A DNA stretch of 64,000 nt from Ignavibacteria bacterium. GTDB taxonomy: Bacteria; Bacteroidota; Ignavibacteria; Ch128b. The stretch spans positions 32,788-96,787 of the forward strand of contig JAOAHM010000062.1 in NCBI GenBank assembly GCA_026415235.1, in the 5' to 3' direction. The position numbers were made by a program, and so were the translations under genes. This document shows positions 1 to 57,869 of this stretch, in pieces (position 1 is the stretch's first letter; each line of letters begins with the position of its first letter). The notes beneath the pieces were generated by a model, which was not told the origin of the DNA, searched no databases, and saw nothing but the letters and a program-made list of their open reading frames with translations.

Positions 1-2538
1 GTTTCGGCAATTGGATATGAGAAGAAGATAATAAAAAATGTTAAAGTGTCTGTTGATTTTACCACAAGAATAAATGTGGAACTGAATGAGGAAGCAGTTA
101 CTCTCCAAGAAATTGTAGTTGAAGCTCAATCGCCTTTAATAAGAGAAGATTTAACTTCTACGCAATCAACAATAGATGCAGGACAGATAGATGCATTACC
201 AGTCGAAAGTGTTCATCAAATATTAGCATTGCAAGCTGGAATTACTCAAGGTGTAGGAGGTGAATTACATATTCGTGGTGGTAGAACAAATGAAATTCTC
301 TACACGGTTAATGGTGTATCTATTTCAAATCCATTTGATAGCTCACCTATGGTCGAGATTGCAACAAATGCTGTTCAAGAAATTTCTGTTGTGAGCGGAA
401 CATTTAACGCTGAATATGGGAATGCATTAAGTGGAGTTGTTAATACAATCACAAAGGAAGGAACTCAGGAATATAAAACTCATCTTTCATTTTATACTGG
501 AGATTTCTTATCAACTCGAAAAAATATTTTCTTTAATGTTGATGATGTTGAGCCATTAAGTAATAATGTAACTGAGCTCACCTTTAGTGGACCTTTTCCG
601 TTTTTGAAAAATAATCTTCTCTTTTTTGTTTCGGCAAGAAATGAAAATAATAAAGGTTGGCTCTTTGGAGTTCGACAGCATATGCCTTGGGATTCAGTTT
701 ATATTAATCCTGCAAATCCAAATGATATTCGAATTTCAAAATCAGGTGATGATGCAATAGTACCAATGAATCCAAGTAGAAAATTTAGTGGAACAATAAA
801 ATTGACATTTAAACCAACCTCAACAATAAAAATCAATTACGATTTACTCTACTCAGATAACTATTTCAAATATTATTCTCATGATTTCAAATACAATCCA
901 GAAGCAGATTATAATTATTACGAAAAAGGTTACATCAATTCTTTAGATTTTAGACATGCAATTAGTAATAGAACTTTTTATTCGCTCAAATTAATGTACA
1001 ATTTCAACGACTACAAACAATATCTTTATCCTTTACTTGATCAGAATGGTAATGCAGTTGATTACTATCCAGGTTTGGGAACACAGAATTTAAAACCAGA
1101 TCCAAGATATCAACCAATAGAAAAATTGACACGTCCTGTTACATACACTTTTTATTTTGGCGGAACAAGGAATGGTCACAGTTATGAACGTGCAAGAACT
1201 TATGGATTGAAATTCGACATGACAAGTCAAGTTACAACCGAGCATGAGTTAAAATTTGGTGCTGAATATAAATCTCACATTCTTGATTACGAAAGTTTTA
1301 CGATACAAAGAGATACTGTACGATATCTTGTTCCAACCATTCCAGATTTAACAACACCATATCACGATTTGTACACAAAGAAACCAGTTCAATTTTCAGC
1401 TTATATTCAAGACAAAATGGAATATGCTAATTTTATAATGAACATTGGCTTAAGATATGATTACTTTAATTCAAGGTCTAAATATTCAACTAATACATTC
1501 TATCCTTCACCAAATGACCCAGCACTACCAGTTTATATCGACAAGAATTCAATCCTTGCTGATGCAACACCTAAACATCAATTAAGTCCAAGATTTGGTA
1601 TATCGTTTCCAATAACAGATCGTGGAATAATTCACTTTAGCTATGGTCATTTCTTCCAGATGCCACCATTCCAGTATTTGTATACAAATCCAAATTTCAA
1701 ATCAAGTTATGCGGTAGGTACGCCAATCTTCGGTGATGCCAATTTGAATCCCGAAAAAACAGTAACTTATGAAATAGGTCTACAACAACTTTTACTCGAT
1801 GATTTGGCTATGACTGTTACAGGTTACTATAAAGATGTTCGTGATTTGCTCGCACTTCAAACAATTCGTGTTAGTAGTGATAGAACTTATCTAAAATATG
1901 TAAACAAAGATTACGGTAATATTAAAGGAATCACTCTTTCACTTGTGAAGAGAAGAACACCTGCAAGTCCTCTTGGAGTTACTGTTGATTATACATTTCA
2001 AGTCGCGGAAGGGAACGATACCGATCCCGATGCATTCTTCCTTGATTTATCCTCAGGTAGACAGAGCGAAAAAATTCCTGTCTTCCTTGCATGGGATCAA
2101 ACTCACACTTTAAATACAACCTTTACTTTTGGTAAGATTGATAATTGGACAATTACAGTGGTAAACCGATTCGGAACTGGATTACCTTATACTCCTCAAA
2201 TAACTGGTAAGCAAGTCTATGTTCGAACAAATAGTGGTAGAAGACCAACACAATTTTATGTTAATCTTTTCGCTGAAAAAATCATGAAAATATTTGGTGC
2301 AAGACTCACTGTGTTTGCTAAGATTTATAACCTCTTTGATAATTTAATCGAACGACTTGTTTATGACGATACAGGAAGAGCGACTTATACATTACTTCAA
2401 ACAAGTGGAGCTACAAAGTCAGCCAAAGAATTATCAGATAAAATACCATTGGTTCGTCCACCTGAAGAATATTTCAATCGTCCACATTATTATCAACCTC
2501 CACGAGAGGTACGAATTGGTTTTGAAATTGATTTCTAA
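1..2538 (+). CDS. TonB-dependent-receptor-like outer-membrane beta-barrel (cassette 1, gene A); 5-prime end lies upstream of the window
   Basis: Frame 1 is open from base 1 (VSAIGYEKKIIKNVKVSVDFTTR...). It aligns with the intact paralog at 36719..39562 (SVVGYQKKSITDVRVNVDFTTR...). There is a plug-like block LHIRGGRTNEILYTVNGVSISNPF and a long strand-rich body. The C-terminus ...PREVRIGFEIDF ends in an aromatic residue, as in OM barrels. Confidence 0.8.
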   Translation, partial: VSAIGYEKKIIKNVKVSVDFTTRINVELNEEAVTLQEIVVEAQSPLIREDLTSTQSTIDAGQIDALPVESVHQILALQAGITQGVGGELHIRGGRTNEILYTVNGVSISNPFDSSPMVEIATNAVQEISVVSGTFNAEYGNALSGVVNTITKEGTQEYKTHLSFYTGDFLSTRKNIFFNVDDVEPLSNNVTELTFSGPFPFLKNNLLFFVSARNENNKGWLFGVRQHMPWDSVYINPANPNDIRISKSGDDAIVPMNPSRKFSGTIKLTFKPTSTIKINYDLLYSDNYFKYYSHDFKYNPEADYNYYEKGYINSLDFRHAISNRTFYSLKLMYNFNDYKQYLYPLLDQNGNAVDYYPGLGTQNLKPDPRYQPIEKLTRPVTYTFYFGGTRNGHSYERARTYGLKFDMTSQVTTEHELKFGAEYKSHILDYESFTIQRDTVRYLVPTIPDLTTPYHDLYTKKPVQFSAYIQDKMEYANFIMNIGLRYDYFNSRSKYSTNTFYPSPNDPALPVYIDKNSILADATPKHQLSPRFGISFPITDRGIIHFSYGHFFQMPPFQYLYTNPNFKSSYAVGTPIFGDANLNPEKTVTYEIGLQQLLLDDLAMTVTGYYKDVRDLLALQTIRVSSDRTYLKYVNKDYGNIKGITLSLVKRRTPASPLGVTVDYTFQVAEGNDTDPDAFFLDLSSGRQSEKIPVFLAWDQTHTLNTTFTFGKIDNWTITVVNRFGTGLPYTPQITGKQVYVRTNSGRRPTQFYVNLFAEKIMKIFGARLTVFAKIYNLFDNLIERLVYDDTGRATYTLLQTSGATKSAKELSDKIPLVRPPEEYFNRPHYYQPPREVRIGFEIDF

Positions 2539-2559: not shown

Positions 2560-5500
2560 ATGAAATTCTTCTTACTTCAAATTTCTTTTTGCTTTCTAAT
2601 TTCAATGAGTCTTTTAGTTGCTCAGACAAATTCAAGTAAACAAAATGAACATCAATCGGTTAAGAATTTAATCAATACTGTTGATAATAAATCATTAAGC
2701 ACAAAGTCATTTACAACAATTCAAGATTTCCAGAAAGGAGTAATAAAAAAGCTTGAAAAGATAAAAGCTCATAAAGATCGTAAGTACTACTTCATGAATG
2801 GAAATAAAATTAGCACTAATATCTACAATTATGGTGGTATTGCACCTGGCTATGGATTGCTTCGCAATGTGAATAATGTAGTCTGGCGTGGTGTTTCCTA
2901 TGTTTTTCAATTTTGTCCATTTGTAGCTGCTTCAGTTCCAAGTGGATATGATTCGACAAAAAGGTTACATATTGTTTCAGATGGATTATGGGATTATCCT
3001 AATTTAAGAGATGTAAGTCCTACGGGAGATACTCTTTGGGCATGGCAACCACTTCCTGGTTATGCTGACCCAAATCAAGAATTTATGGCTTCAAATCCTG
3101 CACCTGATAAAGATAATGATGGCAAACCAGATTCCTGGCCCAGAGAATGGTACAATCCAACTCTTGGAAAATATGTCTGGCCTGGTTACTTAGCTCAAGA
3201 TGCAACAAATGCAGACCTTGAAGTTTTCTGGGCAATGGACGATAGAGACAATTCTGAATTCCCTTACTGGCCCTTTGTAAAAGATTCAACAAGAAGAGGT
3301 TTAGGTGTTCAAGTAGATGGTAGAGCATTGCAATGGAGTAATGCTCTTGCAGAAAACACAATATTTTTTGTTTATACAATAGCAAATGTGAGTGACAAAA
3401 ACTTAGACTCAGTTTATTTTGGAATGTATGGTGACCCTGATGTTGGTGGTGGTTTACCCGCCGATCCAGGTGATGAAGTAAGAGATGATTTAGGTTTCTT
3501 TGTTGCACCACACAATTATTCTGTACCTGTTTATGCTCGAAGTATGATGTATTTGTGGGATAACGATGGCAAAGGTCATCTCGGTTTGCCAGTTGGATAT
3601 CTTGGTTGTAAATACCTGGAATCTCCTTCAAATCCTGGAAATAATTATGATGACGATGGTGATGGTTTAGTTGATGAAAAACAAGATGATGGAATTGATA
3701 ACGATAGAGATTGGAATCCACTTGTTGACGATGTTGGAATTGATGGAATTCCAAACACTGGTGATTTAGGTGAAGGTGATGGAGTGCCCACTCCGGGAAA
3801 AAGATTACCTGATGGCTCACTTGACCCACTTTATCCCGGTGAACCAAATTTCGAGTTAACTGACCTTGATGAATCAGATCAAATTGGTTTGACAAGCTTT
3901 AACAGTTGGACTTGGAATACAGATAAAGTTGCAAACGATGAATCGATGTGGTATCGAGTTCAAGCTGGTAATTTTAGTGATATTCGTCAACTTGAAGATA
4001 TTGTATTCATTTTTGGAAGTGGTCCAATTACTCTTTCAAAAGGCGAGATAAAAAGATTTTCAATGGCTTTACTTCTTGGTGAAAATTTAGATGATTTATT
4101 AACAACAGCAGAAACAGTTCAGAGAATTTACAACGCCAATTACAGATTTTTCCGTCCTCCGCTAAAACCAAATGTTGTTGCTGTTCCAGGTGATAGAAAG
4201 GTTACGCTTTATTGGGATTCAAGAGCAGAAGAGAGTATTGACCCAATTACAGGAAAGGATTTTGAAGGTTATGTCATTTATCGAAGTACAGATCCAACTT
4301 TTAATGATATTCAAACCATTACAGATGGTAAAGGAGCAAAATTTTTATATCAACCATTAAAAGATTTGCAAGGGAATGAATGCAGATGGGATGTTGATAA
4401 AAGACCTGAACCATTCAATGATAAAAATGGAAATCTAAAGTACGATGTTGGCGAAGAATATGTAGATATTAATGGAAATGGTCAGTGGGATCCAATCGCA
4501 CCTGATTATTGGAAAGGTTATCATCCTGTTCCTTATCAAGGTAGAGGTATTCAGTATTTCTTAGGGAACAATCGTGGATTGGTTCATTTTTATGTTGATT
4601 CAAATCAAGTAGTGAATGGTCAAACTTATTATTACGCAGTTGTGGCTTATGACCATGGAGACTCACTTGGAATACCACCAACTGAGACAACTAAGAAAAT
4701 CACTGTTGATCCTATTACAAACCAACTTCAATTCGATGTTAATACAGTTATGGTTATACCAGGACCACGAGCAAGTGGATATGTTGTAACTCCAACAAGC
4801 ACTAAGAGTTTAGTTCATGAAAGTGGAGTTGGAAATGGTGATGTAACATTGGAAGTAATTAACGATTTAATTGTAGAACAAAATTCAGAATTTAGATTAT
4901 TTTTTAGAGATACTTTAATTAGTGGTAATAGAAAAATTCCAGGCAAAAATTATTCTGTTTTGAAATTAACTCCAGTGATTGATAAAAACATCAGTTTTTA
5001 TGATACAAACTTCACAAAACTATCTTATCAAAACATAAGTGATGATAACTTTTTTGTTGTAAAAGATGAAAACGGAAATACTTATACAAAAAATATTGAC
5101 TATGTCGTTAACTTCGAAAGGGGAATAATTCGAAGAACTTCAACAAGCTCAATGGCAGTTAACAAAAAATATTCAGTTCAATATAGATACTATCCAATAT
5201 TTCAAAGTCAATTATTAAAAGGTGAAGATGGTAATCCTGTTTTTGATGGATTGAAACTAAAAATTGTTGATAATCCAGTTCTAAAAATTGACTCAATCAA
5301 AACAAACTGGATAAAAGGTAAGTGCAACTATACATTCAGAGTTGATAGAGCATCAATAGGTGGACGTATCATTCCAAATGAAGCCGATTACGAAATTCAT
5401 TTTTCTAATACATTTATCGACTCTGCAATGGTTTTGGTCTCAGGAAGATTAGTCAAAGTTCCTGTAAAGTATTCAGTAAAAGATGTAACTACTGGAGTTC

Positions 5501-6099
5501 CAAGAAATATTCTAACTTACTTAAAAGAAAATGCTCTCACCCGTGACTCAAATTACACTGCTGGTGAAGAAATTGTTTTCTTCAAACCTGGTTCAACTGG
5601 AAGAACAACTGATACAACAACATGGGGAGTAATTTTCTATGAACCAGCGGGAAAAACTCCAATTCCACCTTCAGCTGGAGATGTTTTCTACATCAGAACA
5701 TTAAGACCATTCAAACCTGCCGATGTATTTTATTTCAAAACAGAAGCATCAAAATTTGATGCAAACTTAGCAAAGTCAAGACTTGACGAAATAATCGTTG
5801 TTCCAAATCCTTATGTTGTTGTAAATGATATAGAACCAACGAATAAACTACCTGGACAAAATCGAGGTGAAAGAAGAATTTATTTTGAAAATCTTCCACC
5901 AGAATGTACTATAAGAATTTTCACTCTCGCAGGTGAACTTGTTCAAGTAATTCACCATTCTTCACAACTGGATAATGGAAGAGAGTTTTGGAATTTGTTG
6001 AACAGAGATGGATTTAGTGTTGCTTATGGAATTTATTTCGCTCACATCGAAGCTCCAGGAATTGGAGAGAAACTCTTAAAATTTGCAATTATTAAGTAA
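2560..6099 (+). CDS. Large secreted multidomain protein (cassette 1, gene B): DxDxDG-type acidic loops, FN3-like domain, T9SS-CTD-like C-terminus; family not recognised
   Basis: GAGGAG RBS lies 9 nt upstream of the ATG. Signal peptide MKFFLLQISFCFLISMSLLVAQ. Acidic loops include DKDNDGKPDSWP and DDDGDGLVDEKQDDGIDNDRDWNPLVDDVGIDGIPNTGDLGEGDG. FN3-like block VTLYWDSRAEE...GYVIYRS...NGQTYYYAVVAYD. Tail is VVPNPYVV...CTIRIFTLAGELV...GIYFAHIEAPGIGEKLLKFAIIK. It starts 21 nt after gene A. Confidence 0.75.
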   Translation: MKFFLLQISFCFLISMSLLVAQTNSSKQNEHQSVKNLINTVDNKSLSTKSFTTIQDFQKGVIKKLEKIKAHKDRKYYFMNGNKISTNIYNYGGIAPGYGLLRNVNNVVWRGVSYVFQFCPFVAASVPSGYDSTKRLHIVSDGLWDYPNLRDVSPTGDTLWAWQPLPGYADPNQEFMASNPAPDKDNDGKPDSWPREWYNPTLGKYVWPGYLAQDATNADLEVFWAMDDRDNSEFPYWPFVKDSTRRGLGVQVDGRALQWSNALAENTIFFVYTIANVSDKNLDSVYFGMYGDPDVGGGLPADPGDEVRDDLGFFVAPHNYSVPVYARSMMYLWDNDGKGHLGLPVGYLGCKYLESPSNPGNNYDDDGDGLVDEKQDDGIDNDRDWNPLVDDVGIDGIPNTGDLGEGDGVPTPGKRLPDGSLDPLYPGEPNFELTDLDESDQIGLTSFNSWTWNTDKVANDESMWYRVQAGNFSDIRQLEDIVFIFGSGPITLSKGEIKRFSMALLLGENLDDLLTTAETVQRIYNANYRFFRPPLKPNVVAVPGDRKVTLYWDSRAEESIDPITGKDFEGYVIYRSTDPTFNDIQTITDGKGAKFLYQPLKDLQGNECRWDVDKRPEPFNDKNGNLKYDVGEEYVDINGNGQWDPIAPDYWKGYHPVPYQGRGIQYFLGNNRGLVHFYVDSNQVVNGQTYYYAVVAYDHGDSLGIPPTETTKKITVDPITNQLQFDVNTVMVIPGPRASGYVVTPTSTKSLVHESGVGNGDVTLEVINDLIVEQNSEFRLFFRDTLISGNRKIPGKNYSVLKLTPVIDKNISFYDTNFTKLSYQNISDDNFFVVKDENGNTYTKNIDYVVNFERGIIRRTSTSSMAVNKKYSVQYRYYPIFQSQLLKGEDGNPVFDGLKLKIVDNPVLKIDSIKTNWIKGKCNYTFRVDRASIGGRIIPNEADYEIHFSNTFIDSAMVLVSGRLVKVPVKYSVKDVTTGVPRNILTYLKENALTRDSNYTAGEEIVFFKPGSTGRTTDTTTWGVIFYEPAGKTPIPPSAGDVFYIRTLRPFKPADVFYFKTEASKFDANLAKSRLDEIIVVPNPYVVVNDIEPTNKLPGQNRGERRIYFENLPPECTIRIFTLAGELVQVIHHSSQLDNGREFWNLLNRDGFSVAYGIYFAHIEAPGIGEKLLKFAIIK

Positions 6100-6121
6100 G
6101 TCATTCTTAAGGAGTTTTGAA

Positions 6122-7144
6122 ATGAAGAAAATTATAATCTTAATTCCATTGATATTTTTAATTTTAATTTGCCATGCATTCTCGCAAATTGGTGCAAGCT
6201 TAACTAAAACAGGAACAACAGCAGCGCAATTTTTGAAAATTGGAATAGGTTCGAGAGCATTAGGAATGGGTGGTGCCTTTGTTGCATCATCCAACGATGT
6301 TTCGGCGATTTATTGGAATCCTGCTGGAATTGCTTTAATTGAAAATCGTGAAGCTGCTTTTAATCATGTTGATTGGTTGATGGATGTTAGTTTTGATCAT
6401 GCATCTTTTGCGATGAATTTCGGTGATTTTGGAACAGTAGGCGCTTTCGTTGGAGTGATGTCCATGGGCGAAATGTTAGTTCGAACTGTTGAAAAACCTG
6501 AAGGTACTGGTGAATACTTTGGTGCTGGTGCAATGACAATTGGATTATCTTATGCAAGAAACTTGACGCAAGATTTTGCTATTGGATTTAATGCAAAATA
6601 CATTCGTGAATTCATCTGGCATGAAATTGCCCAAGGTTTTGCTTTAGATATTGGAACGCTTTATAGATTACAATTTCTAAACGAAACAAGACTTGCTGCA
6701 AGTATTTCAAATTTTGGTACAAAGATGAAACTTTCAGGAAGAGATTTACTTGTTCTAACAAATACAGGTCCTGGTGGTGCAAATATTATTAATACGGAAC
6801 ATCAAGTTGATGAATATGATTTGCCTTTGTTGTTCAGAATTGGTGTTGCAGTTGATGCAATTAAATCGGAACAAATGCGTCTAACCATCGAAACTAACGC
6901 AATTCATCCAAATGATAATACAGAATATTTGAACACAGGTTTTGAATATGCATGGAATGAAAAAATTTTCATTAGAGCTGGCTACAAATCTTTATTCGAA
7001 AGAGATTCTGAACAAGGTTTGACTTGGGGATTGGGTTTAAATTATCGTCTTGTTGATTTTGTTAATCTTAAGTTCGATTATGCTTACCAAGATTTTGGTA
7101 GATTGAAAAATGTGCATTATTTGACTTTAGGAGTAAACTTCTGA
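6122..7144 (+). CDS. PorV/PorQ-family (FadL-like) outer-membrane beta-barrel (cassette 1, gene C)
   Basis: AAGGAG RBS precedes ATG 6122; the track ORF starts at an in-frame upstream TTG at 6083. Signal peptide MKKIIILIPLIFLILICHAFSQ. Motif GSRALGMGGAFVASSNDVSAIYWNPAG is characteristic of PorV/PorQ-type barrels. C-terminus is ...YLTLGVNF. Confidence 0.7.
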   Translation: MKKIIILIPLIFLILICHAFSQIGASLTKTGTTAAQFLKIGIGSRALGMGGAFVASSNDVSAIYWNPAGIALIENREAAFNHVDWLMDVSFDHASFAMNFGDFGTVGAFVGVMSMGEMLVRTVEKPEGTGEYFGAGAMTIGLSYARNLTQDFAIGFNAKYIREFIWHEIAQGFALDIGTLYRLQFLNETRLAASISNFGTKMKLSGRDLLVLTNTGPGGANIINTEHQVDEYDLPLLFRIGVAVDAIKSEQMRLTIETNAIHPNDNTEYLNTGFEYAWNEKIFIRAGYKSLFERDSEQGLTWGLGLNYRLVDFVNLKFDYAYQDFGRLKNVHYLTLGVNF

Positions 7145-7427: not shown

Positions 7428-8285
7428 ATGAATAATCAATCCTTAGAGAGCTCTTATCAGTTTTGCTTAAATCTGGCAAAAAAACATTACGAGAATTTTC
7501 CTGTTGCTTCTATTTTAATTCCGAAGGAGAAAAGGAAATTCGTTGCGGCAGTTTATGCTTTTGCCAGAATTGCTGACGATATTGCTGATGAAGGAAATTT
7601 ATCAAACGAATTTAAAGTTACTCAACTGATTAAATACAAAGACATTTTTGTTAACAAGATTATCACCACAGAATATCCTTATCTCGAAGCGGTGTATGAT
7701 ACAATTCAAAAAAATAATCTGACCGAAAAAAATTTTATTAATCTTATTGAAGCATTCATTCAAGACAATCAAATAAATAAATACAAAACTTTTAGTGAAA
7801 TTTTTGAATACTGTTCTAAATCAGCCAATCCAATTGGAAGAATTTTACTTGAACTATTTGATATTCGAGATAATCAAGCATTAACTCACTCTGACGAAAT
7901 TTGTACAGCTTTACAGTTAACTAATTTCTATCAAGATTTGAGCATTGATATCAATCGAAATAGGTTTTATATCGCAGAGGAAATTCTAAACAAGTTTGAA
8001 CTTACTTTTGATGATTTAATCAATTTTAACCAAACAAAAATTATAAACGAAAATTTTAAATGGATGATGAAATACTTACTTGATGTGAATTATAAACTTT
8101 TTCAAAGCGGAGAAAATCTTCTGAAATATTTAAGTGGTCTATTCAAGTTTGAGATAAAATTGACAATTAACGGTGGCAGAGAAATATTAAACAAAATTAA
8201 GTTGGTTGAATACAACACATTCTTAATTCGTCCTACCCTAAAAAAATTTGATTGGATAAAAATTATTTTGAGAGGATTAGTTTAA
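7428..8285 (+). CDS. hpnC: Squalene/phytoene synthase family protein, HpnC-type (hydroxysqualene synthase)
   Basis: Asp-rich motifs YAFARIADDIADE and NFYQDLSID. It is the first of two tandem SQS/PSY paralogs followed by an FAD amine-oxidase gene, which is the hpnC-hpnD-hpnE order. Confidence 0.7.
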   Translation: MNNQSLESSYQFCLNLAKKHYENFPVASILIPKEKRKFVAAVYAFARIADDIADEGNLSNEFKVTQLIKYKDIFVNKIITTEYPYLEAVYDTIQKNNLTEKNFINLIEAFIQDNQINKYKTFSEIFEYCSKSANPIGRILLELFDIRDNQALTHSDEICTALQLTNFYQDLSIDINRNRFYIAEEILNKFELTFDDLINFNQTKIINENFKWMMKYLLDVNYKLFQSGENLLKYLSGLFKFEIKLTINGGREILNKIKLVEYNTFLIRPTLKKFDWIKIILRGLV

Positions 8286-36718: not shown

Positions 36719-39562
36719 ATGCTAAACAAATACTTCTTTTCCTTCCTTACATTAGTTCTAATGGTATCCTATTTAATTGCAGGGAATACTGGCAAAATTG
36801 CTGGTAAAGTAATTGATAAAGAAACAAAAGAACCGATTCCATTTGCTAATGTAATCGTTGAAGGAACTCAACTTGGTGCTGCTACAAATCTTAATGGGGA
36901 GTTTGTTATTCTAAATGTTCCACCAGGAGTTTACACAGTAACAGCATCAGTTGTTGGTTATCAGAAAAAATCAATTACTGATGTTCGAGTTAATGTTGAT
37001 TTTACAACAAGACTCGAATTTCAATTAACTCAAGGCTCTATTGACTTACCACCTGTTATTGTTCAAGGTGAGAGAAATCCTTTAATCCGACAAGACCTCA
37101 CAAATCCTGTAGCTTCAATTACAAGTGATAAGATTGACGAATTGCCAGTGGATCAAATTGCCGATGTAATTAAGCTCCAAGCTGGTGTTGTTGTAGGTAA
37201 TGATGGTGATATTCATATCCGTGGTGGATATGGAAATGAAATCGCTTACACATTAAATGGAATTACATTAAATGACCCTTACGGTAACCGTAGGTCTGTT
37301 GGACTTGCAACAAATGCAGTTCAAGAAGTTTCTGTTTCAAGTGGAACTTTTAGTGCTGAATATGGAAATGCTCTTAGTGGTGTAGTTAATTATGTAACCA
37401 AAGAAGGTCCATCGAAATATACTGGAAGTATTAAAGCATATTCTGGTGATTATCTCACAAGTAGAAAAGATTTGTTTGAGAATATTGATGAGGTAAATCC
37501 ATTAAACAGAGCGAGAACTGAGTTTACATTTGGCGGACCTTTGCCTTTATTGTTTAGCAAAAGTGTTAACTTTTTCATTTCATCTGTTTATGAAGACTTC
37601 AAAGGTTCACTTTATGGAAAAAGAATTTATCGTCCTACTGATTCTTACTTAGAACGAAATAACTTCCGCTCTGGTGACCCAAGAAGTGGTAAATCTACTG
37701 ATCCATATTTCTTCAATCCTTACTCGAAAGATAGCTCTGGATTACCCACTGGTGATGGTGCGTGGGTTCCAATGAATTGGTCAAGGTCTTTCAATTTTCA
37801 AGGTAACTTGATTATAAAACCGCTTCCAACCATCAAATTCAAATATGAATATGTTTATGAAAAAGGTTCATCACAAGATTATGACAGGTCATACAAGTAT
37901 AATCCTGACGGAAGACCTACGAACTATTCTAATGGTTATATTCATGCATTTGATTGGACACATACAGTTTCAAACAACTTATTCTACACATTGAAGATGT
38001 CCTATTCGGATAATTATGCAAAAACATATTTGTATGAAAATCCTTTTGATGAAAGATATCTACCTTCCCTTTATGCAAGGTCATTGGGTAATACAACATT
38101 CTTGACTGGAGGAACAGATAACTCAAGATTTTACAGAAGAACACAAACCTTAGGTGTGAAAGGTGACTTAGTTGCACAATTGTTTGATGTTCATGAAATT
38201 AAAATGGGATTTGAAATTCGTAAACATAGATTGAATGTAGAAAGTTACACCGTTCAAGTTGGTTATATTAATCAACAAGGTTTATTTACAACATTAACTC
38301 CAGCAACTTTACTTTATGACTCAGTTCAATTAGTAAGAAGAATTCCAAACGACACTTCTCTTTATACAAGTTATGAGCGATTACCTTTACAAGCAGCTGC
38401 TTACATTCAAGATAAAATTGAGTTAGCTTCTTCAATGATTTTAAATGTTGGTGTACGATATGAGTTTTTCAATCCAGCTGCTCAATACAATCCTTTTGTT
38501 AGCAAAGATTTGAGTGAATTAAAAGCAGGTTCAATTACAAAAAGCGCAGTTGATGCAAAACCAAAGCATAGATTGAGTCCAAGAGTTAGTGTCTCTTACC
38601 CAATTACCGATAGAGGTGTAATTAGATTTTCCTACGGACATTTTTATCAGATACCATCGTTGGCAAGCCTTTATCGAAATCCATTCTATTATGTTGCGAA
38701 CTTTGGAGAGAATCCAACTTTTGGAAATCCAAATGTAGAACCACAAAAAAGCGTTCAGTATGAGTTAGGATTACAACAACTTTTATTGGATGATTTGAAA
38801 CTCGAAGTGACAGGATTTTATAAAGATGTAAGTAATTACATTTATACTCAACAGATTTTCACAAATGAAGGGCGAGCATTTTATCTTTTAACAAATCTTG
38901 CGTATTCGAGTAGTAAGGGAATAACAGTCTCGCTACTTAAGCGCAGGTCACCACAAGATTTCTTCTCTGCATCTTTAGATTATACTTTTTCACTTGCTGA
39001 AGGTAATAGAACCTATCCAGCCGATGAAATTTTCTTTAGCGAAAAAAGTGGAAAACAAAGTGAAACATATCTTGTACCATTTAGCTTTGATAGAAGTCAT
39101 GTGATTAATGCAACATTAACATTTACAAAACCAAACAATTGGATTGCATCTTTTGTCGGTTATTTCCAGACAGGTACACCATACACACCAGTTTTTCCTT
39201 CGAACATAGTTGACATTACTTTTGAACAGAACTCTGCTCGTCAACCAATTCAATGGAATGTTGATTTTAAGTTCGAAAAATTCTTTATGCTCGGAAATTT
39301 GAAATTGTCTTTATTCGCTCAAATAGAAAATTTGTTTGATACTCAAAACGAACTTTATGTGTATGCTTCAACAGGAAGAGCGTTAAGTGCAATTGAAGAA
39401 AAAGATATTTCAATTGTGTTCTCCGATATGTTACGAAGAATTAATCGAGGTGATGCTGGATTAATTCCAAAGAAGGAAATCGAGCGCTATTACTCACTTC
39501 GACCTGAAAGGGTCAATAGACCAAGAGAAGTCCGATTAGGATTTCAAATAATTTTTAACTGA
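36719..39562 (+). CDS. TonB-dependent-receptor-like outer-membrane protein with N-terminal carboxypeptidase-regulatory-like domain (cassette 2, gene A)
   Basis: Signal peptide. The block GKIAGKVIDKETKEPIPFANVIVEGTQLGAATNLNGEFVILNVPPGVYTVTASVVGY is CarboxypepD_reg-like. Plug-like block IHIRGGYGNEIAYTLNGITLNDPY and a long barrel follow. The C-terminus is ...PREVRLGFQIIFN. Confidence 0.85.
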   Translation: MLNKYFFSFLTLVLMVSYLIAGNTGKIAGKVIDKETKEPIPFANVIVEGTQLGAATNLNGEFVILNVPPGVYTVTASVVGYQKKSITDVRVNVDFTTRLEFQLTQGSIDLPPVIVQGERNPLIRQDLTNPVASITSDKIDELPVDQIADVIKLQAGVVVGNDGDIHIRGGYGNEIAYTLNGITLNDPYGNRRSVGLATNAVQEVSVSSGTFSAEYGNALSGVVNYVTKEGPSKYTGSIKAYSGDYLTSRKDLFENIDEVNPLNRARTEFTFGGPLPLLFSKSVNFFISSVYEDFKGSLYGKRIYRPTDSYLERNNFRSGDPRSGKSTDPYFFNPYSKDSSGLPTGDGAWVPMNWSRSFNFQGNLIIKPLPTIKFKYEYVYEKGSSQDYDRSYKYNPDGRPTNYSNGYIHAFDWTHTVSNNLFYTLKMSYSDNYAKTYLYENPFDERYLPSLYARSLGNTTFLTGGTDNSRFYRRTQTLGVKGDLVAQLFDVHEIKMGFEIRKHRLNVESYTVQVGYINQQGLFTTLTPATLLYDSVQLVRRIPNDTSLYTSYERLPLQAAAYIQDKIELASSMILNVGVRYEFFNPAAQYNPFVSKDLSELKAGSITKSAVDAKPKHRLSPRVSVSYPITDRGVIRFSYGHFYQIPSLASLYRNPFYYVANFGENPTFGNPNVEPQKSVQYELGLQQLLLDDLKLEVTGFYKDVSNYIYTQQIFTNEGRAFYLLTNLAYSSSKGITVSLLKRRSPQDFFSASLDYTFSLAEGNRTYPADEIFFSEKSGKQSETYLVPFSFDRSHVINATLTFTKPNNWIASFVGYFQTGTPYTPVFPSNIVDITFEQNSARQPIQWNVDFKFEKFFMLGNLKLSLFAQIENLFDTQNELYVYASTGRALSAIEEKDISIVFSDMLRRINRGDAGLIPKKEIERYYSLRPERVNRPREVRLGFQIIFN

Positions 39563-39579: not shown

Positions 39580-42500
39580 ATGATGAGAAAGAAAATTTTC
39601 ATTTCATTCATTCTGGTTCTAATTCTTGCAATCAATTTAATTGCACAGAAAAAAGATCAGTATGGAAATTACATCTTAAAAGAATTAACAGAAAAACAAG
39701 CCCTGGAACTTTTTGGAAAACCAGGTGAGCGATTAGCTAAAGCTCTTGGCAATCCTAAGATTATTAAAGAAAGTATAATTCAAGGAAATAAAGTAAAGAC
39801 CGTTCTCTTCAATTACGGCTCAATTTGTGCACCAAATTATCTTGGAAATATTGCAGACCTCGTGTGGAATGGATTGGGATACGGTTTCGAATTTGGTCCT
39901 CTTGCTGCAGCAGAAGTTGTTAACGATCGTGGCGATACACTACACATTGTTGATGATTCATTTATTAGAACTTTTCAAGGTGATTACAATCCAGCAGGAA
40001 CATTGAAATGGGGTTGGTTACCAAAAGATGGATATGTTGACCCAAATCAGAATGAAATTGCAAGACTAAATTCTCCCGATAAAAATGGTGATGGTAAACC
40101 AGATAGCTGGCCTGAAAACTGGTATAATCCAGGTGCTGGAAAATATCTCTGGCCTGCTTTCTTAGGTGATCAAGCAACTGCTCCTGATGAAGAAGTTTAT
40201 TTTGTGATTGATGATTTTACAAATGCTGAATTTCCATACTATCCATTTCCAAATGATTCTTCTAAACGTGGACTTGGACTTGACATGGAAGTTCGTGTGC
40301 TTCAATTTAACAATCCACTTGCTGAAGATATCATCTTCTTAGTCTATCAAACTACTAATGTAAGTCCAAAAACCTTACCGAGAGTTTATTTTGGTATGCA
40401 TGGTGACCCGCATGTTGGTGGACCAAGTAATTACAACGATGATAGAGCTTATTTTATTCCACCGTTAGGACCATTAGCTGATCCATATCCACAAAGAGCA
40501 CGAAGCATGGTTTATGCTTGGGATGATGATATGAAAGGTGATGGAGGTAAATGGTGCGGATACTTCGGTTGGAAATTTTTAGAAAGTCCAAGTCAACATA
40601 CAGATGTAAAAGATAACGATGATGATGGTATCACAGACGAAAGTCCATTCAACGATGCAGGTTTTTTCATTGATGGTGTTGTTTATCCACTAACTTATGG
40701 AATATCGAATTTAACAAAGTACACAGAAGTTTATGGTGCACCAAAGCCAAGATGGTCTGGTGACGAAGATGGCGATTGGGATCCTTCAATTCATGATATT
40801 GGAATTGATGGAATTGGTCCAGACTCTCCCAATTATCCTGGTCCTGATTATGGTGAAGGTGATGGCAAACCAACTCAAGCTTGGTACATCGATCTTAACA
40901 ACAACAATAAATATGATGTTGGAGAACCACTTTCAGAAACAAGATTACCAGGTTACAAATGGGCAGGCTCTGAACCACACTTTGGTTTAAGAGATATTTC
41001 AGAATCAGATCAACTTGGTTTAACAAGTTTCCACGCAGCAGTTTACACTAACTCACTTCCAAATGTCCCAATGAATGACGAGTTGATGTGGGAATGGTTA
41101 TCGAGTGAGACAATTGATCCTAATCAAGAATTACTTAATCAACCAGGTGACAATGTATTTAATTTTGGAACTGGACCATTCAAACTCGAACCTGGTGAAA
41201 CACAAAGATTTTCGATGTGTATTTTGTTTGGTGAAAATCTTAATGATTTGGTATTAAATGCAGAAATTTCTACTCGTATTCTTGAAGCAGATTATCGCTT
41301 TGCACAACCACCAGCAAAACCAATTGTTTATGCAGTTCCTGGTGATGGAAGAGTTACACTTTATTGGGATACAAGAGCAGAAAATTCAGTTGACCCATTG
41401 ACTTTAAGTAAAGATTTCCAAGGTTATAAAATTTATCGAAGTCAAGATCCTAAATTTTCTGATGTATTTAAGATAACAGATGGAAATGGTGTTCCTTATC
41501 TTGGTGTTCCTTTGTTTGACCCAAACACTGGTAAATATGCACAATTCGATTTAGTTGATTCGTTGAAAGGATTTCATCCAGTTGAGTATGCTGGTAGAGG
41601 TATAAAATATTGGATAGGTAATAATACTGGATTAGTTCATGAGTATGTGGATTCAACCGTTAAGAATGGAATAACTTATTACTATGCAGTAGTTTCCTAC
41701 GATGGTGGTTCATTAGTTCCAGGAAAAGAACTTCCTCCATCTGAATGTCCAATGGTTATTTCACAAGATCCAATCACTGGCGAATTAAAATTTGATGTTA
41801 ATACCGTAATGGTTGTACCTGGACCACGTGCAAAAGGTACATTAACTGATTTAAATAAAAATATTAATGTTGAACACCTTAATGGAATTGCAACTGGAAG
41901 AATTTTTGTTAAGACTTATGATAGCAAAGCTGTGAAAGATAACAATGTTTACATTGTTGAATTCACAACGAATACTAAGTTTAATGTTTTGAATGAAACA
42001 GGTGTAACCGATAAAATAATATCAAAAGATACTGTTCTCGTAAATCTTTCAAATCAGAATATCTTACCAGGAAGTGTTATTGTCAAAGACGAAGCTGGTA
42101 ATATTGTTCCATCAAATAAATACATAGTTAATACTATTTCAGGAAAAATCAGAAGTGCAAACTCTGGAGATTTACCTGCTGGAAAAGAATATTCTGTTTA
42201 TTACAAGTATTATCCTGTTTATCAAAGCAGCAACATAAAAGGTGAAGATACAAATCCAATTTTTGATGGAATGCGAATTTTCTTGTACAACGATACTCTT
42301 GGAATTGATCGGAAGAATTCTGGTTGGGCACCTGGAAAGAAAACGAATTTAAGAGATACAATTATTTGGGTACCAAGAACCGTTTCTCCTGCAAATCCAC
42401 ACCTACCAACCGACCTTGACTTTAAGATTGAATTTACAAGCATGGATACAACTTCTACAGGAAAATATTCTTCTCCTGGTGATACTGTTAATAACCAATC

Positions 42501-43140
42501 AAATCAAAGAACCGTTTGTCCATTTAGAATTACTATTGCAACTCAAGACTCAATGCTGGGCAGAAAAGCTGATTATATAATTTTTGAAGGAATTGCTGCA
42601 ACTCGAGGTAATGGTCGTTGGGATCCAGGTGAAGATATTATTTTCTTCCCAAGAGTAAGAGAAAGACTAAGAACTTCATATCAAATTACATTTTCTTTAC
42701 CTTCGGGCACATTCATCCCACCGCAAGGTGATGTTTATTATTTAAAGACGACAAAACCATTCAAAGCTGGAGAGAAATATTCTTTCAAGACAATTGGCGA
42801 AAAGTATGATAAAGAACTTGCTAAGAGTCAGCTTGAAAATATTTATGTAGTTCCAAATCCTTATGTCGCATATTCCGATGCTGAGCAACCAGCTCGTCAA
42901 CCAAATAGAAGAGGTGATAAGGTTATTCAGTTTAGAAATCTACCGAAAGAATGTACAATTAGAATTTATACTATTGCTGGTGAACTTGTTCAAACACTTT
43001 ATAAAAATGATGATGGTAGTATCATCAGTTGGGATTTATTAAGCTACGAAGGACAAAGAATTGCTTACGGTGTTTACATTTATCATGTTGATGCACCTGG
43101 AATAGGTGAGAAGATTGGTCGATTCGCAGTTATAAAATAA
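39580..43140 (+). CDS. Large secreted multidomain protein (cassette 2, gene B), paralog of 2560..6099
   Basis: GAGGAG RBS, with ATG at 39580 or 39583; the track uses TTG 39568. Signal peptide ...LILAINLIAQ. The blocks are collinear with the paralog: DKNGDGKPDSWP, VYFGMHGDPHVGG, DIGIDGIGPDSPNYPGPDYGEGDG, VTLYWDTRAEN...GYKIYRS...GITYYYAVVSYD, and the tail VVPNPYVA...CTIRIYTIAGELV...GVYIYHVDAPGIGEKIGRFAVIK. Confidence 0.75.
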   Translation: MMRKKIFISFILVLILAINLIAQKKDQYGNYILKELTEKQALELFGKPGERLAKALGNPKIIKESIIQGNKVKTVLFNYGSICAPNYLGNIADLVWNGLGYGFEFGPLAAAEVVNDRGDTLHIVDDSFIRTFQGDYNPAGTLKWGWLPKDGYVDPNQNEIARLNSPDKNGDGKPDSWPENWYNPGAGKYLWPAFLGDQATAPDEEVYFVIDDFTNAEFPYYPFPNDSSKRGLGLDMEVRVLQFNNPLAEDIIFLVYQTTNVSPKTLPRVYFGMHGDPHVGGPSNYNDDRAYFIPPLGPLADPYPQRARSMVYAWDDDMKGDGGKWCGYFGWKFLESPSQHTDVKDNDDDGITDESPFNDAGFFIDGVVYPLTYGISNLTKYTEVYGAPKPRWSGDEDGDWDPSIHDIGIDGIGPDSPNYPGPDYGEGDGKPTQAWYIDLNNNNKYDVGEPLSETRLPGYKWAGSEPHFGLRDISESDQLGLTSFHAAVYTNSLPNVPMNDELMWEWLSSETIDPNQELLNQPGDNVFNFGTGPFKLEPGETQRFSMCILFGENLNDLVLNAEISTRILEADYRFAQPPAKPIVYAVPGDGRVTLYWDTRAENSVDPLTLSKDFQGYKIYRSQDPKFSDVFKITDGNGVPYLGVPLFDPNTGKYAQFDLVDSLKGFHPVEYAGRGIKYWIGNNTGLVHEYVDSTVKNGITYYYAVVSYDGGSLVPGKELPPSECPMVISQDPITGELKFDVNTVMVVPGPRAKGTLTDLNKNINVEHLNGIATGRIFVKTYDSKAVKDNNVYIVEFTTNTKFNVLNETGVTDKIISKDTVLVNLSNQNILPGSVIVKDEAGNIVPSNKYIVNTISGKIRSANSGDLPAGKEYSVYYKYYPVYQSSNIKGEDTNPIFDGMRIFLYNDTLGIDRKNSGWAPGKKTNLRDTIIWVPRTVSPANPHLPTDLDFKIEFTSMDTTSTGKYSSPGDTVNNQSNQRTVCPFRITIATQDSMLGRKADYIIFEGIAATRGNGRWDPGEDIIFFPRVRERLRTSYQITFSLPSGTFIPPQGDVYYLKTTKPFKAGEKYSFKTIGEKYDKELAKSQLENIYVVPNPYVAYSDAEQPARQPNRRGDKVIQFRNLPKECTIRIYTIAGELVQTLYKNDDGSIISWDLLSYEGQRIAYGVYIYHVDAPGIGEKIGRFAVIK

Positions 43141-43157: not shown

Positions 43158-44189
43158 ATGAGAAAAATTATTATAATCTCAGCCATAACATTAATATTCG
43201 TTAATCTAAATCTTTTTGCTCAGCTTGAAAGAAGCACCTCGAAAGTTGGAACAACAGCAGCAACATTTTTGAAGATTAATGCTGGTGCTCGTGCGATTGG
43301 AATGGCAGGTGCATTTGCTGCAATGGAAAATGATATCTATTCTATTTATTACAATCCAGCTGGTATTTCAAGAATATCTGGGACAGGGGCTGCAGCTTTC
43401 AATCATGCTAATTGGCTTGCTGATATGTCTTATGATTTTGCTGCGCTTGCACTTAATCTTGGTGATATTGGAAGTATTGCATTGAGTTTAACTTCCTTTA
43501 GTGTCCCTGAAGAAAAGGTTCGCACTTTTGATAATCCCGAAGGTGATGGTAGATATTGGGATGCATCTTCATTATCCCTTGGTGTTTCTTATGCAAGAAA
43601 TTTGACTGATAATTTTTCGATTGGTTTTAATTTGAAATATATTCGTGATCAAGTTTGGGATATGAGCGCAAGTTCAATTGCAATTGATGCGGGTACAATG
43701 TACACAACACCATTCAATGGATTGAGGATTGGTGCGAGCATTTCAAACTTTGGTACTAAAATGAAATTGGAAGGAAGAAATACTTACATCAATGTTGACC
43801 CAAATAATAATCCAAATTCAGGTCCAAATAATATTCCTGCAGAATACCGATTAGCATATTATGATATTCCTCTTTCTTTCAGAGTTGGTTTAGCGATGGA
43901 AGTTGTTAAAAGCCAATTAGTAACAATCACTACTTCTCTTGACGCTGTTCATCCCAATGATAATACAGAATATCTTAATCTTGGTTTGGAGTTTAATTTT
44001 AATAATAATTTTTATGCAAGAGGTGGTTATAAATCTTTATTCTTAAGAGATAGTGAACAAAGCTGGACATTTGGCTTTGGTTTGAATTATCCTATAATAA
44101 ACGATATTGGTCTATCGCTGAATTATGGTTTTGCTGATTATGGTAGATTGAAAAATGTTCAGTTCTTCGATTTAGTAGTAAATTTCTAA
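43158..44189 (+). CDS. PorV/PorQ-family outer-membrane beta-barrel (cassette 2, gene C), paralog of 6122..7144
   Basis: TGGAG RBS lies 7 nt before ATG 43158. There is a signal peptide ending ...NLNLFAQ. Motifs GARAIGMAGAFAAMENDIYSIYYNPAG and HPNDNTEYLN are shared with the paralog. The C-terminus is ...FFDLVVNF. Confidence 0.7.
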   Translation: MRKIIIISAITLIFVNLNLFAQLERSTSKVGTTAATFLKINAGARAIGMAGAFAAMENDIYSIYYNPAGISRISGTGAAAFNHANWLADMSYDFAALALNLGDIGSIALSLTSFSVPEEKVRTFDNPEGDGRYWDASSLSLGVSYARNLTDNFSIGFNLKYIRDQVWDMSASSIAIDAGTMYTTPFNGLRIGASISNFGTKMKLEGRNTYINVDPNNNPNSGPNNIPAEYRLAYYDIPLSFRVGLAMEVVKSQLVTITTSLDAVHPNDNTEYLNLGLEFNFNNNFYARGGYKSLFLRDSEQSWTFGFGLNYPIINDIGLSLNYGFADYGRLKNVQFFDLVVNF

Positions 44190-51792: not shown

Positions 51793-51805
51793 GGTTAATT
51801 GATTG

Positions 51806-53612: not shown

Positions 53613-53614
53613 TT

Positions 53615-57759: not shown

Positions 57760-57869
57760 AAGAAAATAAGAATTAATTTTGATTGTTAATTAATTGAGAT
57801 AGGGTGATTTTAGGTTAGGTCTTTAGTTAGTTCTTTATAAAATTTTTTGAAATAAAATTGGGAGGTACA

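What the first reader, a model, noticed from the sequence alone, without database searches (positions are those of the whole stretch)
5782..7144. Giant proteins end in a T9SS-CTD-like beta-sandwich, and each is followed by a private PorV/PorQ-like barrel
Seen directly: the tail VVPNPYVV...ECTIRIFTLAGELVQV...GIYFAHIEAPGIGEKLLKFAIIK follows the same pattern as the canonical CTD in this window (NYPNPFNSTTKIRYSIP..VKIDLYDILGRKIS...GIYFYEVRYKDYQSVKKMVYVK). It differs by an insertion after the PNP motif. Established knowledge: in Porphyromonas and Flavobacterium T9SS, PorV binds cargo CTDs, and the PorV-like barrel PorQ permanently holds the CTD protein PorZ at the surface. Inference: each giant protein may be a dedicated, stably docked client of its adjacent barrel (a PorQ-PorZ-like pair) rather than a cleaved, LPS-anchored cargo.
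Basis: partly seen in the sequence, partly recalled or inferred. Interest (0 to 1): 0.65.

Follow-up and report, generated by a model that had tools for sequence, protein, structure and literature searches.

The report
Receptor, big surface protein, private barrel
Two copies of a three-gene operon each encode a TonB-dependent outer-membrane receptor, a 1,180-residue surface protein ending in a PorZ-like type IX secretion tail, and that protein's own PorV/PorQ-type barrel; this widespread, unstudied module probably captures and imports nutrients, with the surface partner held by a barrel rather than a lipid anchor.

Summary
Both ~1,180-aa proteins end in a seven-strand beta-sandwich homologous to type IX secretion (T9SS) C-terminal domains (CTDs). 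A profile comparison with canonical CTDs of the same lineage gives 93.5% probability. The only significant match among solved structures, by sequence and by fold, is the uncleaved CTD of PorZ. A fixed insertion of about 15 residues follows the PNP motif. Each protein is followed by a PorV/PorQ-family barrel (233 and 206 bits against a cutoff of 90) that is neither a PorV nor a PorQ equivalog.

A TonB-dependent receptor always precedes the pair. The order receptor, big protein, barrel holds in essentially all of 161 related loci, down to about 30% identity. In 19 divergent loci the trio sits between a LacI regulator and a sugar ABC importer. Rhodothermus alginate and xylan loci show similar receptor/CTD-protein gene runs.

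Best reading: a SusCD-like uptake module whose surface partner is delivered by T9SS and held by a cognate barrel. Docking, CTD retention and cooperation with the receptor are all inferred. No complex model could be run. The window holds no core T9SS gene.

This is a new variant of known kinds, and of moderate to high interest.

The parts
1..2538 (+). TonB-dependent receptor A. Its 5' end is cut by the window edge, because the frame is open from base 1.
   Evidence: Pfam Plug and TonB_dep_Rec_b-barrel above cutoffs. Frame open at position 1. 40% identical to receptor B. The full-length orthologue is 916 aa and adds a CarboxypepD_reg domain.
2560..6099 (+). Large surface protein A (1,179 aa). 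It has a Sec signal peptide, all-beta domains, an Asp-rich calcium-type stretch, an FN3-like domain and a C-terminal CTD.
   Evidence: Translation. No Pfam hit for the body. At least 1,302 homologues, every name given by a source being 'hypothetical protein'. AlphaFold2/Foldseek: strings of beta-sandwich domains. RBS GAGGAG 21 nt after the receptor stop codon.
5794..6096 (+). CTD of protein A (residues 1079-1179), a divergent T9SS C-terminal domain closest to that of PorZ.
5809..5874 (+). Loop between strands beta1 and beta2 (residues 1084-1105). It carries the family-specific insertion of about 15 residues (EPTNKLPGQNRGER).
   Evidence: Low pLDDT in the model. Fixed spacing in diverse relatives. 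Residues 1086-1105: majority-residue fraction 0.78 across the 30-sequence alignment, but only 30% identity between paralogues A and B.
6122..7144 (+). PorV/PorQ-family outer-membrane barrel A (340 aa).
   Evidence: NF033709 232.7 bits against cutoff 90. PorQ 90.6 against 220, PorV 87.8 against 250. Pfam PorV 39.1 bits against 27. The only PDB sequence hit is F. johnsoniae PorV, E 5.8e-10. The ATG start is confirmed by an identical 340-aa database protein.
36719..39562 (+). TonB-dependent receptor B (947 aa): CarboxypepD_reg domain, Plug and barrel.
   Evidence: Pfam PF13715, PF07715, PF00593 and PF25183 above cutoffs.
39580..43140 (+). Large surface protein B (the ORF opens at TTG 39568; the likely start is ATG 39580), a 40%-identical paralogue of A.
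42835..43137 (+). CTD of protein B.
   Evidence: NCBIfam PorZ C-terminus E 1.1e-5, PorU CTD 1.5e-3, TIGR04183 0.035. 51% identical to tail A.
43158..44189 (+). PorV/PorQ-family barrel B, 47% identical to barrel A.
   Evidence: NF033709 205.7 bits. Aligns end to end with the PorQ model (residues 9-341 on model positions 5-331 of 335) but scores 82 bits against a cutoff of 220. Paralogue comparison.
60459..60704 (+). Comparator only: the canonical type A CTD at the end of a BNR-repeat protein (57858-60707).
   Evidence: TIGR04183 34.5 bits against cutoff 23; PF18962 36.1 bits against 27.

Best explanation
Each cassette is a co-transcribed three-gene module that builds an outer-membrane nutrient-capture and import complex.

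The large protein is exported by Sec and crosses the outer membrane through the T9SS translocon by means of its C-terminal domain. That domain is a divergent type-A-derived CTD with a lineage-specific loop. It is collected by the barrel encoded next to it rather than by the general PorV shuttle. It stays bound there, which tethers the ~130-kDa all-beta protein at the cell surface. This is how PorQ holds PorZ and how SprF holds SprB.

The tethered protein then works with the TonB-dependent receptor encoded just upstream. It acts as the receptor's substrate-binding partner, a functional counterpart of SusD or surface glycan-binding proteins. The substrate is probably an oligosaccharide or another polymer fragment.

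Shown: the domain identities, the homologies, the gene order and its conservation, and the sugar-locus context in relatives.

Inferred: passage through the T9SS, binding of the tail to the barrel, retention of the tail, physical or functional coupling to the receptor, and the substrate class.
For: (1) The tail is a T9SS CTD. hhalign gives 93.5% against canonical CTDs. PorZ is the only significant PDB match, by sequence and by fold.

(2) The barrels are PorV/PorQ family members well above cutoff, and are not the housekeeping PorV or PorQ equivalogs.

(3) Tight operons. Intergenic gaps are 17-22 nt, each with an RBS. The whole trio is duplicated as a unit (40%, 40% and 47% identity).

(4) Linkage is conserved.
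- Among 80 genomic loci, the receptor is present in 74 and the barrel in 76, and every miss is at a contig end.
- 78 of 80 barrels lie directly after a big protein.
- Among 80 divergent metagenomic loci (about 30-35% identity), 64 of 68 have the barrel directly downstream and 54 of 56 have the receptor upstream. All but one of the exceptions (L133) are rearrangements inside the cluster or a slight gene overlap.

(5) Context. In 19 of the 80 divergent loci the trio adjoins a LacI regulator, a sugar ABC importer, or both. The fullest examples run LacI, (FG-GAP CTD protein), receptor, big protein, barrel, solute-binding protein and two permeases, all on one strand.

(6) Literature.
- The Rhodothermus marinus alginate locus contains a TonB receptor, a T9SS type A sorting-domain protein and a PorV/PorQ family protein, in that order (PMC9530828).
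- Its xylan locus has a receptor (Rmar_1070) followed by a CTD protein (Rmar_1071) and two more hypothetical proteins (PMC6987092).
- Cognate FadL-type barrels are known to hold PorZ, PorU and type B CTD proteins.

(7) The insertion loop is conserved among orthologues but differs between paralogues A and B. A specificity element would be expected to behave this way.
Against: There is no direct evidence of tail-barrel contact. A multimer prediction could not be run.

The mirror-tree analysis of 99 trios does not single out tail-barrel. Partial r is 0.43, against 0.41 for tail-receptor.

Tail conservation and the PorZ-like hairpin are not specific to retained CTDs.

The tails fall below the curated cutoffs of every T9SS CTD model.

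The body of the protein has no recognisable carbohydrate-binding or catalytic domain, and its model has only moderate confidence (pLDDT 64).

The two cassettes in this window sit among housekeeping genes, not sugar genes.

Core T9SS genes were not seen in the window. One survey found only SprA, PorV and Plug in cultured Ignavibacteria.
Confidence: 0.5

Rival explanations
1. The barrel is a dedicated carrier only. It collects this unusual CTD at the translocon, as PorV does for ordinary cargo. The CTD is then cleaved, and the protein is released or linked to lipopolysaccharide. The barrel is a private shuttle, not an anchor.
For: PorV works in this way for type A cargo, and CTD affinity for PorV is expected to drop once it leaves the translocon (PMC10994853). 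The tails are homologous to type A CTDs. Nothing measured here distinguishes transient from stable binding.
Against: The closest CTD is that of PorZ, which is retained. A one-to-one gene ratio and strict co-inheritance of cargo and barrel fit a stoichiometric partner better than a recycling shuttle. The known cases of private barrels (SprF, PorP, PorQ) are anchors.
Confidence: 0.2
2. The trio is a self-contained export device. The TonB-dependent barrel acts as the exit channel for the big protein, as the Oar receptor is reported to do for PopC in Myxococcus (from my own knowledge). The PorV-like barrel receives the tail. The pathway is independent of, or parallel to, SprA.
For: Receptor B matches PF25183 and has a CarboxypepD_reg domain. 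One survey did not detect the T9SS motor and ring genes in Ignavibacterium or Melioribacter. Big-protein body and receptor distances are the most tightly correlated pair (r 0.96). SurA-like chaperone genes lie in or beside some cassettes.
Against: The receptors have ordinary Plug domains. The LacI and ABC-importer context points to import. Canonical CTD proteins with no adjacent receptor occur in the same genomes, so a general T9SS route exists. The correlation is confounded by protein length.
Confidence: 0.08
3. The barrel is an ordinary FadL-type channel for a hydrophobic or amphipathic substrate, and the beta-sandwich tail is just a structural Ig-like domain. The adjacency reflects a shared metabolic pathway, not protein-protein docking.
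For: PorV, PorQ, PorP and BamG all belong to the FadL superfamily, and the barrels give weak Toluene_X hits. Ig-like folds are common (lower ranks).
Against: The barrels score far above cutoff on the PorV/PorQ family model and only marginally on FadL/Toluene_X. The tail sits at the extreme C-terminus and carries the PNP motif and the C-terminal K/R signature. It matches PorZ specifically, by both sequence and fold.
Confidence: 0.05

Closest known systems
PorQ-PorZ pair of the Porphyromonas gingivalis T9SS attachment complex
   Same: A CTD protein is held by a PorV-family barrel other than PorV. The tail here is closest to the PorZ CTD, by sequence and by fold. Barrel B aligns end to end with the PorQ model. 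The PorZ CTD is not cleaved, and PorQ is proposed to collect it directly from the translocon.
   Different: The big protein is not a PorZ orthologue. It lacks the PorZ beta-propeller domains (Foldseek matches PorZ only over a short stretch) and scores 23-24 bits against a cutoff of 260. The barrels fail the PorQ equivalog cutoff. Here the two genes are adjacent, are accompanied by a TonB-dependent receptor, and occur in multiple copies per genome. The tail has an extra loop of about 15 residues between beta1 and beta2.
Type B CTD proteins with cognate PorP/SprF-like barrels (SprB-SprF; PG1035-PorP)
   Same: A cargo gene sits next to a private FadL-family barrel gene. The barrel is specific for its cargo and anchors it at the surface. 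A genome can hold several such pairs (PMC9143113).
   Different: The tails give no hit to the type B CTD model, and the barrels give none to a PorP/SprF model. They belong to the type A/PorZ side and to the PorV/PorQ family. No receptor gene is mentioned beside those pairs in the paper read.
SusC/SusD-type polysaccharide utilization loci of Bacteroidota
   Same: The gene order is receptor first, then its surface partner. The receptor has an N-terminal CarboxypepD_reg-type domain. In relatives the module lies in loci with a sugar-responsive regulator and an inner-membrane sugar importer.
   Different: There is no SusD homologue and no lipoprotein signal. The partner has a Sec type I signal peptide (read by eye) and a T9SS CTD, and comes with a barrel. 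The receptors fall far below the SusC/RagA cutoff (65 against 368 bits).
Receptor / T9SS type A protein / PorV-PorQ gene run in the Rhodothermus marinus alginate locus (a similar run in its xylan locus)
   Same: In the alginate locus the three gene types occur in the same order, inside a characterised polysaccharide locus (PMC9530828). The xylan locus has a receptor followed by a CTD protein (PMC6987092).
   Different: The genes are only annotated there and have not been studied. The middle protein is smaller (2,181 nt) and passes the type A CTD model, which the tails here do not. Homology of its body to this family was not tested.
BamG-BamH of the Bacteroidota BAM complex
   Same: A 14-strand FadL-type barrel serves as a platform that holds a surface-exposed protein through its extracellular loops (PMC12578637).
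   Different: BamH is a lipoprotein, not a CTD protein. The barrels here score 20 bits against a cutoff of 250 on the BamG model.

Membership tests
T9SS type A CTD (TIGR04183 / PF18962) | Score at or above the curated cutoff of the family model | tested here: not met
   Tail B 14.1 bits and tail A 13.0 bits against cutoff 23. No PF18962 hit. 15 of 25 family tails hit with best E 4.4e-4.
T9SS type A CTD (TIGR04183 / PF18962) | Homology to bona fide type A CTDs | tested here: met
   hhalign of the tail profile against a profile of 21 canonical CTDs from related loci and this window: 93.5% probability, E 2.3e-7, over strands beta3-beta6.
T9SS CTD (any class) | Seven-strand Ig-like beta-sandwich at the extreme C-terminus | tested here: met
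   The AlphaFold2 model has seven strands (pLDDT 73.8) and ends at the last residue. The top Foldseek hit is PorZ 5m11, with PorU and a NucA CTD also listed.
T9SS CTD (any class) | N-terminal Sec signal peptide on the same protein | tested here: met
   Read directly from the translations: MKFFLLQISFCFLISMSLLVA|Q and MMRKKIFISFILVLILAINLIA|Q. No signal-peptide predictor was run.
T9SS CTD (any class) | Secretion depends on the T9SS translocon, and core T9SS genes are present in the genome | not testable with these tools
   The window has no core T9SS gene. Canonical CTD proteins are present. The literature reports SprA, PorV and Plug in Ignavibacterium and Melioribacter.
T9SS type B CTD (TIGR04131) | Match to the type B model | tested here: not met
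   No hit at E up to 1 for either full protein or for any of 25 tails.
PorZ (NF052228 equivalog) | Full-length match above cutoff (two beta-propellers plus CTD) | tested here: not met
   Only the last ~100 residues match, at 23-24 bits against cutoff 260. Foldseek with the full-length model matches PorZ over only 284 columns (TM-score 0.07 normalised to the query, 0.11 to PorZ).
Retained (uncleaved) CTD, as in PorZ and PorU | The CTD remains on the mature protein | not testable with these tools
   Needs proteomics. The shared beta5-beta6 hairpin is not diagnostic.
PorV/PorQ family (NF033709) | Score at or above the curated cutoff | tested here: met
   232.7 and 205.7 bits against cutoff 90, aligned over the full model. 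Pfam PorV 39.1 and 45.6 bits against cutoff 27.
PorV equivalog (NF033710), PorQ equivalog (NF033711), PorV2 (NF052325) | Score at or above the equivalog cutoff | tested here: not met
   PorV 88 and 83 bits against 250. PorQ 91 and 82 against 220. PorV2 85 and 72 against 325.
PorP/SprF family (type B carriers) | Match to the family model | tested here: not met
   No PorP/SprF model is listed among the NCBIfam or Pfam hits at E up to 1.
TonB-dependent receptor | Plug domain plus 22-strand barrel domain | tested here: met
   PF07715 and PF00593 are above cutoffs in both receptors.
SusC/RagA subfamily (TIGR04056) with a SusD partner | Score above the subfamily cutoff and an adjacent SusD gene | tested here: not met
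   65 and 37 bits against cutoff 368. The adjacent gene has no SusD domain.

The most novel reading that the evidence does not exclude
Ignavibacteria and related lineages build their main polymer-uptake machines differently from the SusC/SusD paradigm. A TonB-dependent receptor is paired with a large partner that is delivered by the T9SS and fastened to the membrane by a dedicated PorV/PorQ-type barrel instead of a lipid anchor. This would make the trio a third class of T9SS surface attachment, after lipopolysaccharide linkage and PorP/SprF docking, and a new marker for finding nutrient-utilization loci outside the Bacteroidia.
Probability: 0.35. Interest if true: 0.8.

Novelty: new variant of a known kind. 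Interest (0 to 1): 0.62.

Why it matters
Polysaccharide utilization loci are recognised by SusC/SusD gene pairs. Lineages such as Ignavibacteria and Rhodothermota are major polymer degraders in sediments, hot springs and reactors. If they use a receptor plus a barrel-anchored T9SS protein instead, their uptake loci are currently invisible to standard annotation.

The family is large. A profile of the tail region finds 3,004 representative clusters at E<=1e-10, and at least 582 genomic stretches in species-representative genomes encode a relative. Every name that a source gives these proteins is 'hypothetical protein'.

For T9SS biology, the module would extend the cognate-barrel principle, known for PorQ-PorZ and SprF-SprB, to a new CTD subclass. 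It offers many natural paralogue pairs for working out what makes a CTD choose one barrel over another, and what protects a CTD from cleavage.

Tried and rejected
(1) Tail conservation as a sign of retention. The CTD has a majority-residue fraction of 0.81, against 0.55-0.59 for the neighbouring domains. However, the canonical CTD of the adjacent FG-GAP protein is also more conserved than its body (0.74 against 0.59). The measure does not discriminate.

(2) The PorZ/PorU-type beta5-beta6 hairpin as a marker of uncleaved CTDs. It also occurs in canonical Ignavibacteria CTDs (WDGTNNAGQGVASG). It was shown experimentally not to control cleavage.

(3) Mirror-tree and partial-correlation analysis on 99 complete trios. 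All pairs correlate at 0.89-0.96. Tail-barrel is not distinguished from tail-receptor. The body-receptor pair is highest, but this is confounded by sequence length.

(4) An intermolecular disulfide between tail and barrel. The mature barrels and the receptors have no cysteine, so this is rejected.

(5) Function of the body. There are no Pfam or PDB sequence hits. Foldseek on a moderate-confidence model gives only generic multi-Ig/FN3 matches.

(6) Promoter and terminator scans were at chance level.

(7) Looking up the window's own contig by exact protein failed. A 91%-identical relative was used instead.

Full report
**What is in the window**

The window is AT-rich (about 32% G+C) and comes from an Ignavibacteria-type genome. 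The closest relatives of its proteins are Ignavibacteria MAGs.

It contains two paralogous cassettes, both on the + strand.
- Cassette A: a TonB-dependent receptor (1-2538, cut by the window edge), a 1,179-aa protein (2560-6099) and a 340-aa barrel (6122-7144).
- Cassette B: a 947-aa receptor (36719-39562), a protein of about 1,186 aa (39580-43140) and a 343-aa barrel (43158-44189).

The three proteins of A and B are 40%, 40% and 47% identical, so the trio was duplicated as a unit. Inside each cassette the genes are 17-22 nt apart, and each gene has its own ribosome-binding site. The window holds no third copy of any of the three.

**Checking the observation**

Single-sequence searches barely see them as CTDs. 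There is no Pfam hit, and TIGR04183 scores 13-14 bits against a cutoff of 23.

Profile and structure methods are clear.
- Every one of 25 diverse tails hits the C-terminal ~100 positions of the NCBIfam PorZ model (best E 5.6e-8). 16 hit the PorU CTD and 15 hit the type A model.
- The tail profile finds one PDB sequence below E 0.01. It is PorZ (5m11), aligned to its very last residue.
- An AlphaFold2 model (pLDDT 73.8) shows seven strands. Its only Foldseek match below E 1e-3 is PorZ. PorU and a translocon-bound NucA CTD rank lower.
- Against a profile of 21 canonical type A CTDs, taken from neighbouring genes in related loci and from this window, hhalign gives 93.5% probability.

The tails are therefore real T9SS-type CTDs. 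They derive from the type A class and are nearest to the PorZ CTD.

The insertion after PNP is also real and fixed. The distance from PNP to the cysteine that opens strand beta3 is 32-35 residues in 129 of 131 representatives from clusters at 50% identity or less. In the two canonical CTDs the corresponding distance is roughly 22 residues, counted by eye. The loop is modelled with low confidence. It is conserved among orthologues but only 30% identical between paralogues A and B.

**The barrels**

Both barrels pass the PorV/PorQ family model by a wide margin. Both fail the PorV, PorQ and PorV2 equivalog models. Their only relative among solved structures, by sequence, is Flavobacterium johnsoniae PorV. 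Databases name the orthologues 'PorV/PorQ family protein', 'UPF0164' or 'opacity protein-like'. They form a distinct subfamily.

A TonB-dependent receptor with Plug and barrel domains precedes each pair. Full-length copies also carry an N-terminal CarboxypepD_reg domain.

- In 80 loci from species-representative genomes, the order receptor, big protein, barrel is kept wherever the contig reaches. These are mostly Ignavibacteriales and Melioribacteraceae, with a few Calditrichia, and were taken from at least 582 matches.
- 78 of 80 barrel genes lie directly after a big-protein gene. The other two are cut by the locus end.
- I then searched metagenomes with deliberately divergent family members, about 30-35% identical to protein A. 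The barrel is directly downstream in 64 of 68 loci with room, and the receptor is upstream in 54 of 56.
- The exceptions are a receptor and big-protein overlap slightly beyond my threshold (L102), a swapped order of receptor, barrel, big protein (L154, L160), an inserted SurA-like gene (L139), and one locus with no barrel or receptor detected (L133).

**What the module does**

The body of the big protein has no Pfam or PDB sequence match. It models as a chain of beta-sandwich and FN3-like domains with an Asp-rich, calcium-site-like stretch.

Context is more informative.
- In 19 of the 80 divergent loci the trio adjoins a LacI-family regulator, a sugar-type ABC importer (solute-binding protein plus two permeases), or both. 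In the fullest examples all the genes lie on one strand, as in L088 and L094.
- An FG-GAP beta-propeller protein with a canonical type A CTD accompanies the trio in 56 of 81 genomic and 47 of 80 metagenomic loci.
- The Rhodothermus marinus alginate utilization locus is drawn with a TonB receptor, a T9SS type A sorting-domain protein and a PorV/PorQ family protein, in that order (PMC9530828).
- Its xylan locus has a receptor followed by a CTD protein and two further hypothetical proteins (PMC6987092).
- None of these papers discusses the arrangement, and seven full-text searches found no study of it.

**Mechanism**

Established knowledge:
- PorV collects type A CTDs inside the SprA pore (PMC10994853).
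- PorQ holds PorZ, whose CTD is not cleaved, and is proposed to collect it directly from the translocon (PMC10947112).
- PorP/SprF-like barrels bind and anchor their own type B CTD proteins (PMC9143113).
- A review proposes that cognate PorV-like barrels protect CTDs from cleavage (PMC10202324).

By analogy, I propose the following. The big protein leaves the translocon bound to its own barrel and stays on it. The barrel-tethered protein then serves the upstream receptor as a substrate-capturing partner, in the place that SusD and surface glycan-binding lipoproteins occupy in Bacteroidia.

This rests on homology, gene linkage and context. Binding, CTD retention and cooperation with the receptor are inferred.

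**Weaknesses**

- No complex prediction could be run.
- Three indirect tests for stable docking did not discriminate: tail conservation, the PorZ-like hairpin, and mirror-tree correlation.
- The two cassettes in this window are surrounded by housekeeping genes, not sugar genes: hpnCDE, mreBCD, PBP2, rodA, nuo, pur and asnS.
- The window holds no core T9SS gene. One BLAST survey found only SprA, PorV and Plug in cultured Ignavibacteria (PMC11705866). This leaves open how secretion is powered in this lineage. It also keeps alive, at low probability, the idea that the receptor takes part in export.

**Verdict**

It is a new variant that combines two known principles: a cognate FadL-type barrel for a T9SS CTD protein, and a receptor with a surface partner. 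The family is very large and unannotated. Interest is moderate to high.

Noticed in passing
related loci, e.g. L011:924-2762, L081:4600-6456 (minus strand), L088:1325-3160: An FG-GAP beta-propeller protein of about 550-640 aa (longer in some loci) with a canonical type A T9SS CTD lies next to the receptor gene in 56 of 81 genomic and 47 of 80 metagenomic loci. It is probably a fourth, optional member of the module. The region upstream of cassette A lies outside this window.
   Followed up: partly
window 3607 and 5905 (Cys350 and Cys1116 of protein A); Cys330 and Cys1129 of protein B: The big-protein family keeps only two cysteines. One is in the N-terminal domain. The other is invariant and lies in CTD strand beta3, where canonical CTDs have Val or Ile. 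The receptors and mature barrels have no cysteine. An intramolecular disulfide tying the CTD to the body is conceivable but could not be checked.
   Followed up: partly
window 2560-2640, 6122-6190, 39580-39650, 43158-43220: All four signal peptides end ...A/S|Q, with Gln at +1. This is the pattern known as the Bacteroidota 'Q-rule' (recalled from my own knowledge; read by eye, no predictor run).
   Followed up: no
window 7428-10413: The hpnC, hpnD and hpnE genes (squalene synthesis, the hopanoid precursor route) follow cassette A directly. The same arrangement occurs in the 91%-identical relative (L081).
   Followed up: no
window 51803-53245: A CitMHS_2 (putative citrate transporter) gene sits between nuoM (50260-51792) and nuoN (53609-55042), inside the NADH dehydrogenase gene row.
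   Followed up: no
window 56709-57368 and 57858-60707: A protein with a TonB C-terminal domain lies just upstream of a 949-aa BNR-repeat protein that carries the window's one canonical type A CTD.
   Followed up: no
window 19929-20996: A protein of the bacterial archaeo-eukaryotic release-factor-like family (baeRF family 3) lies among housekeeping genes.
   Followed up: no
L139:5981-7396; L112:2077-3942 (minus strand); L094:13138-14688: Genes for SurA-like or PPIase periplasmic chaperones lie inside or beside the cassette in a minority of the 80 divergent loci (a BLAST cluster spanning 19 loci; about 7-8 by direct search). In L139 the gene sits between the big protein and the barrel.
   Followed up: partly
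L154:1845-9546 and L160:2-6833: A variant gene order of receptor, barrel, big protein. Linkage matters, but the order is not absolute.
   Followed up: partly
protein P0082 (homologue of protein A): This protein carries a precomputed Pfam accession, PF27730.1, which is absent from the Pfam copy available here. A recent Pfam entry may already cover part of this family.
   Followed up: no
literature: PMC11705866: A BLAST survey states that Melioribacter and Ignavibacterium have SprA, PorV and Plug but no other detectable T9SS protein. If true, the energy source for secretion in this lineage is an open question.
   Followed up: no
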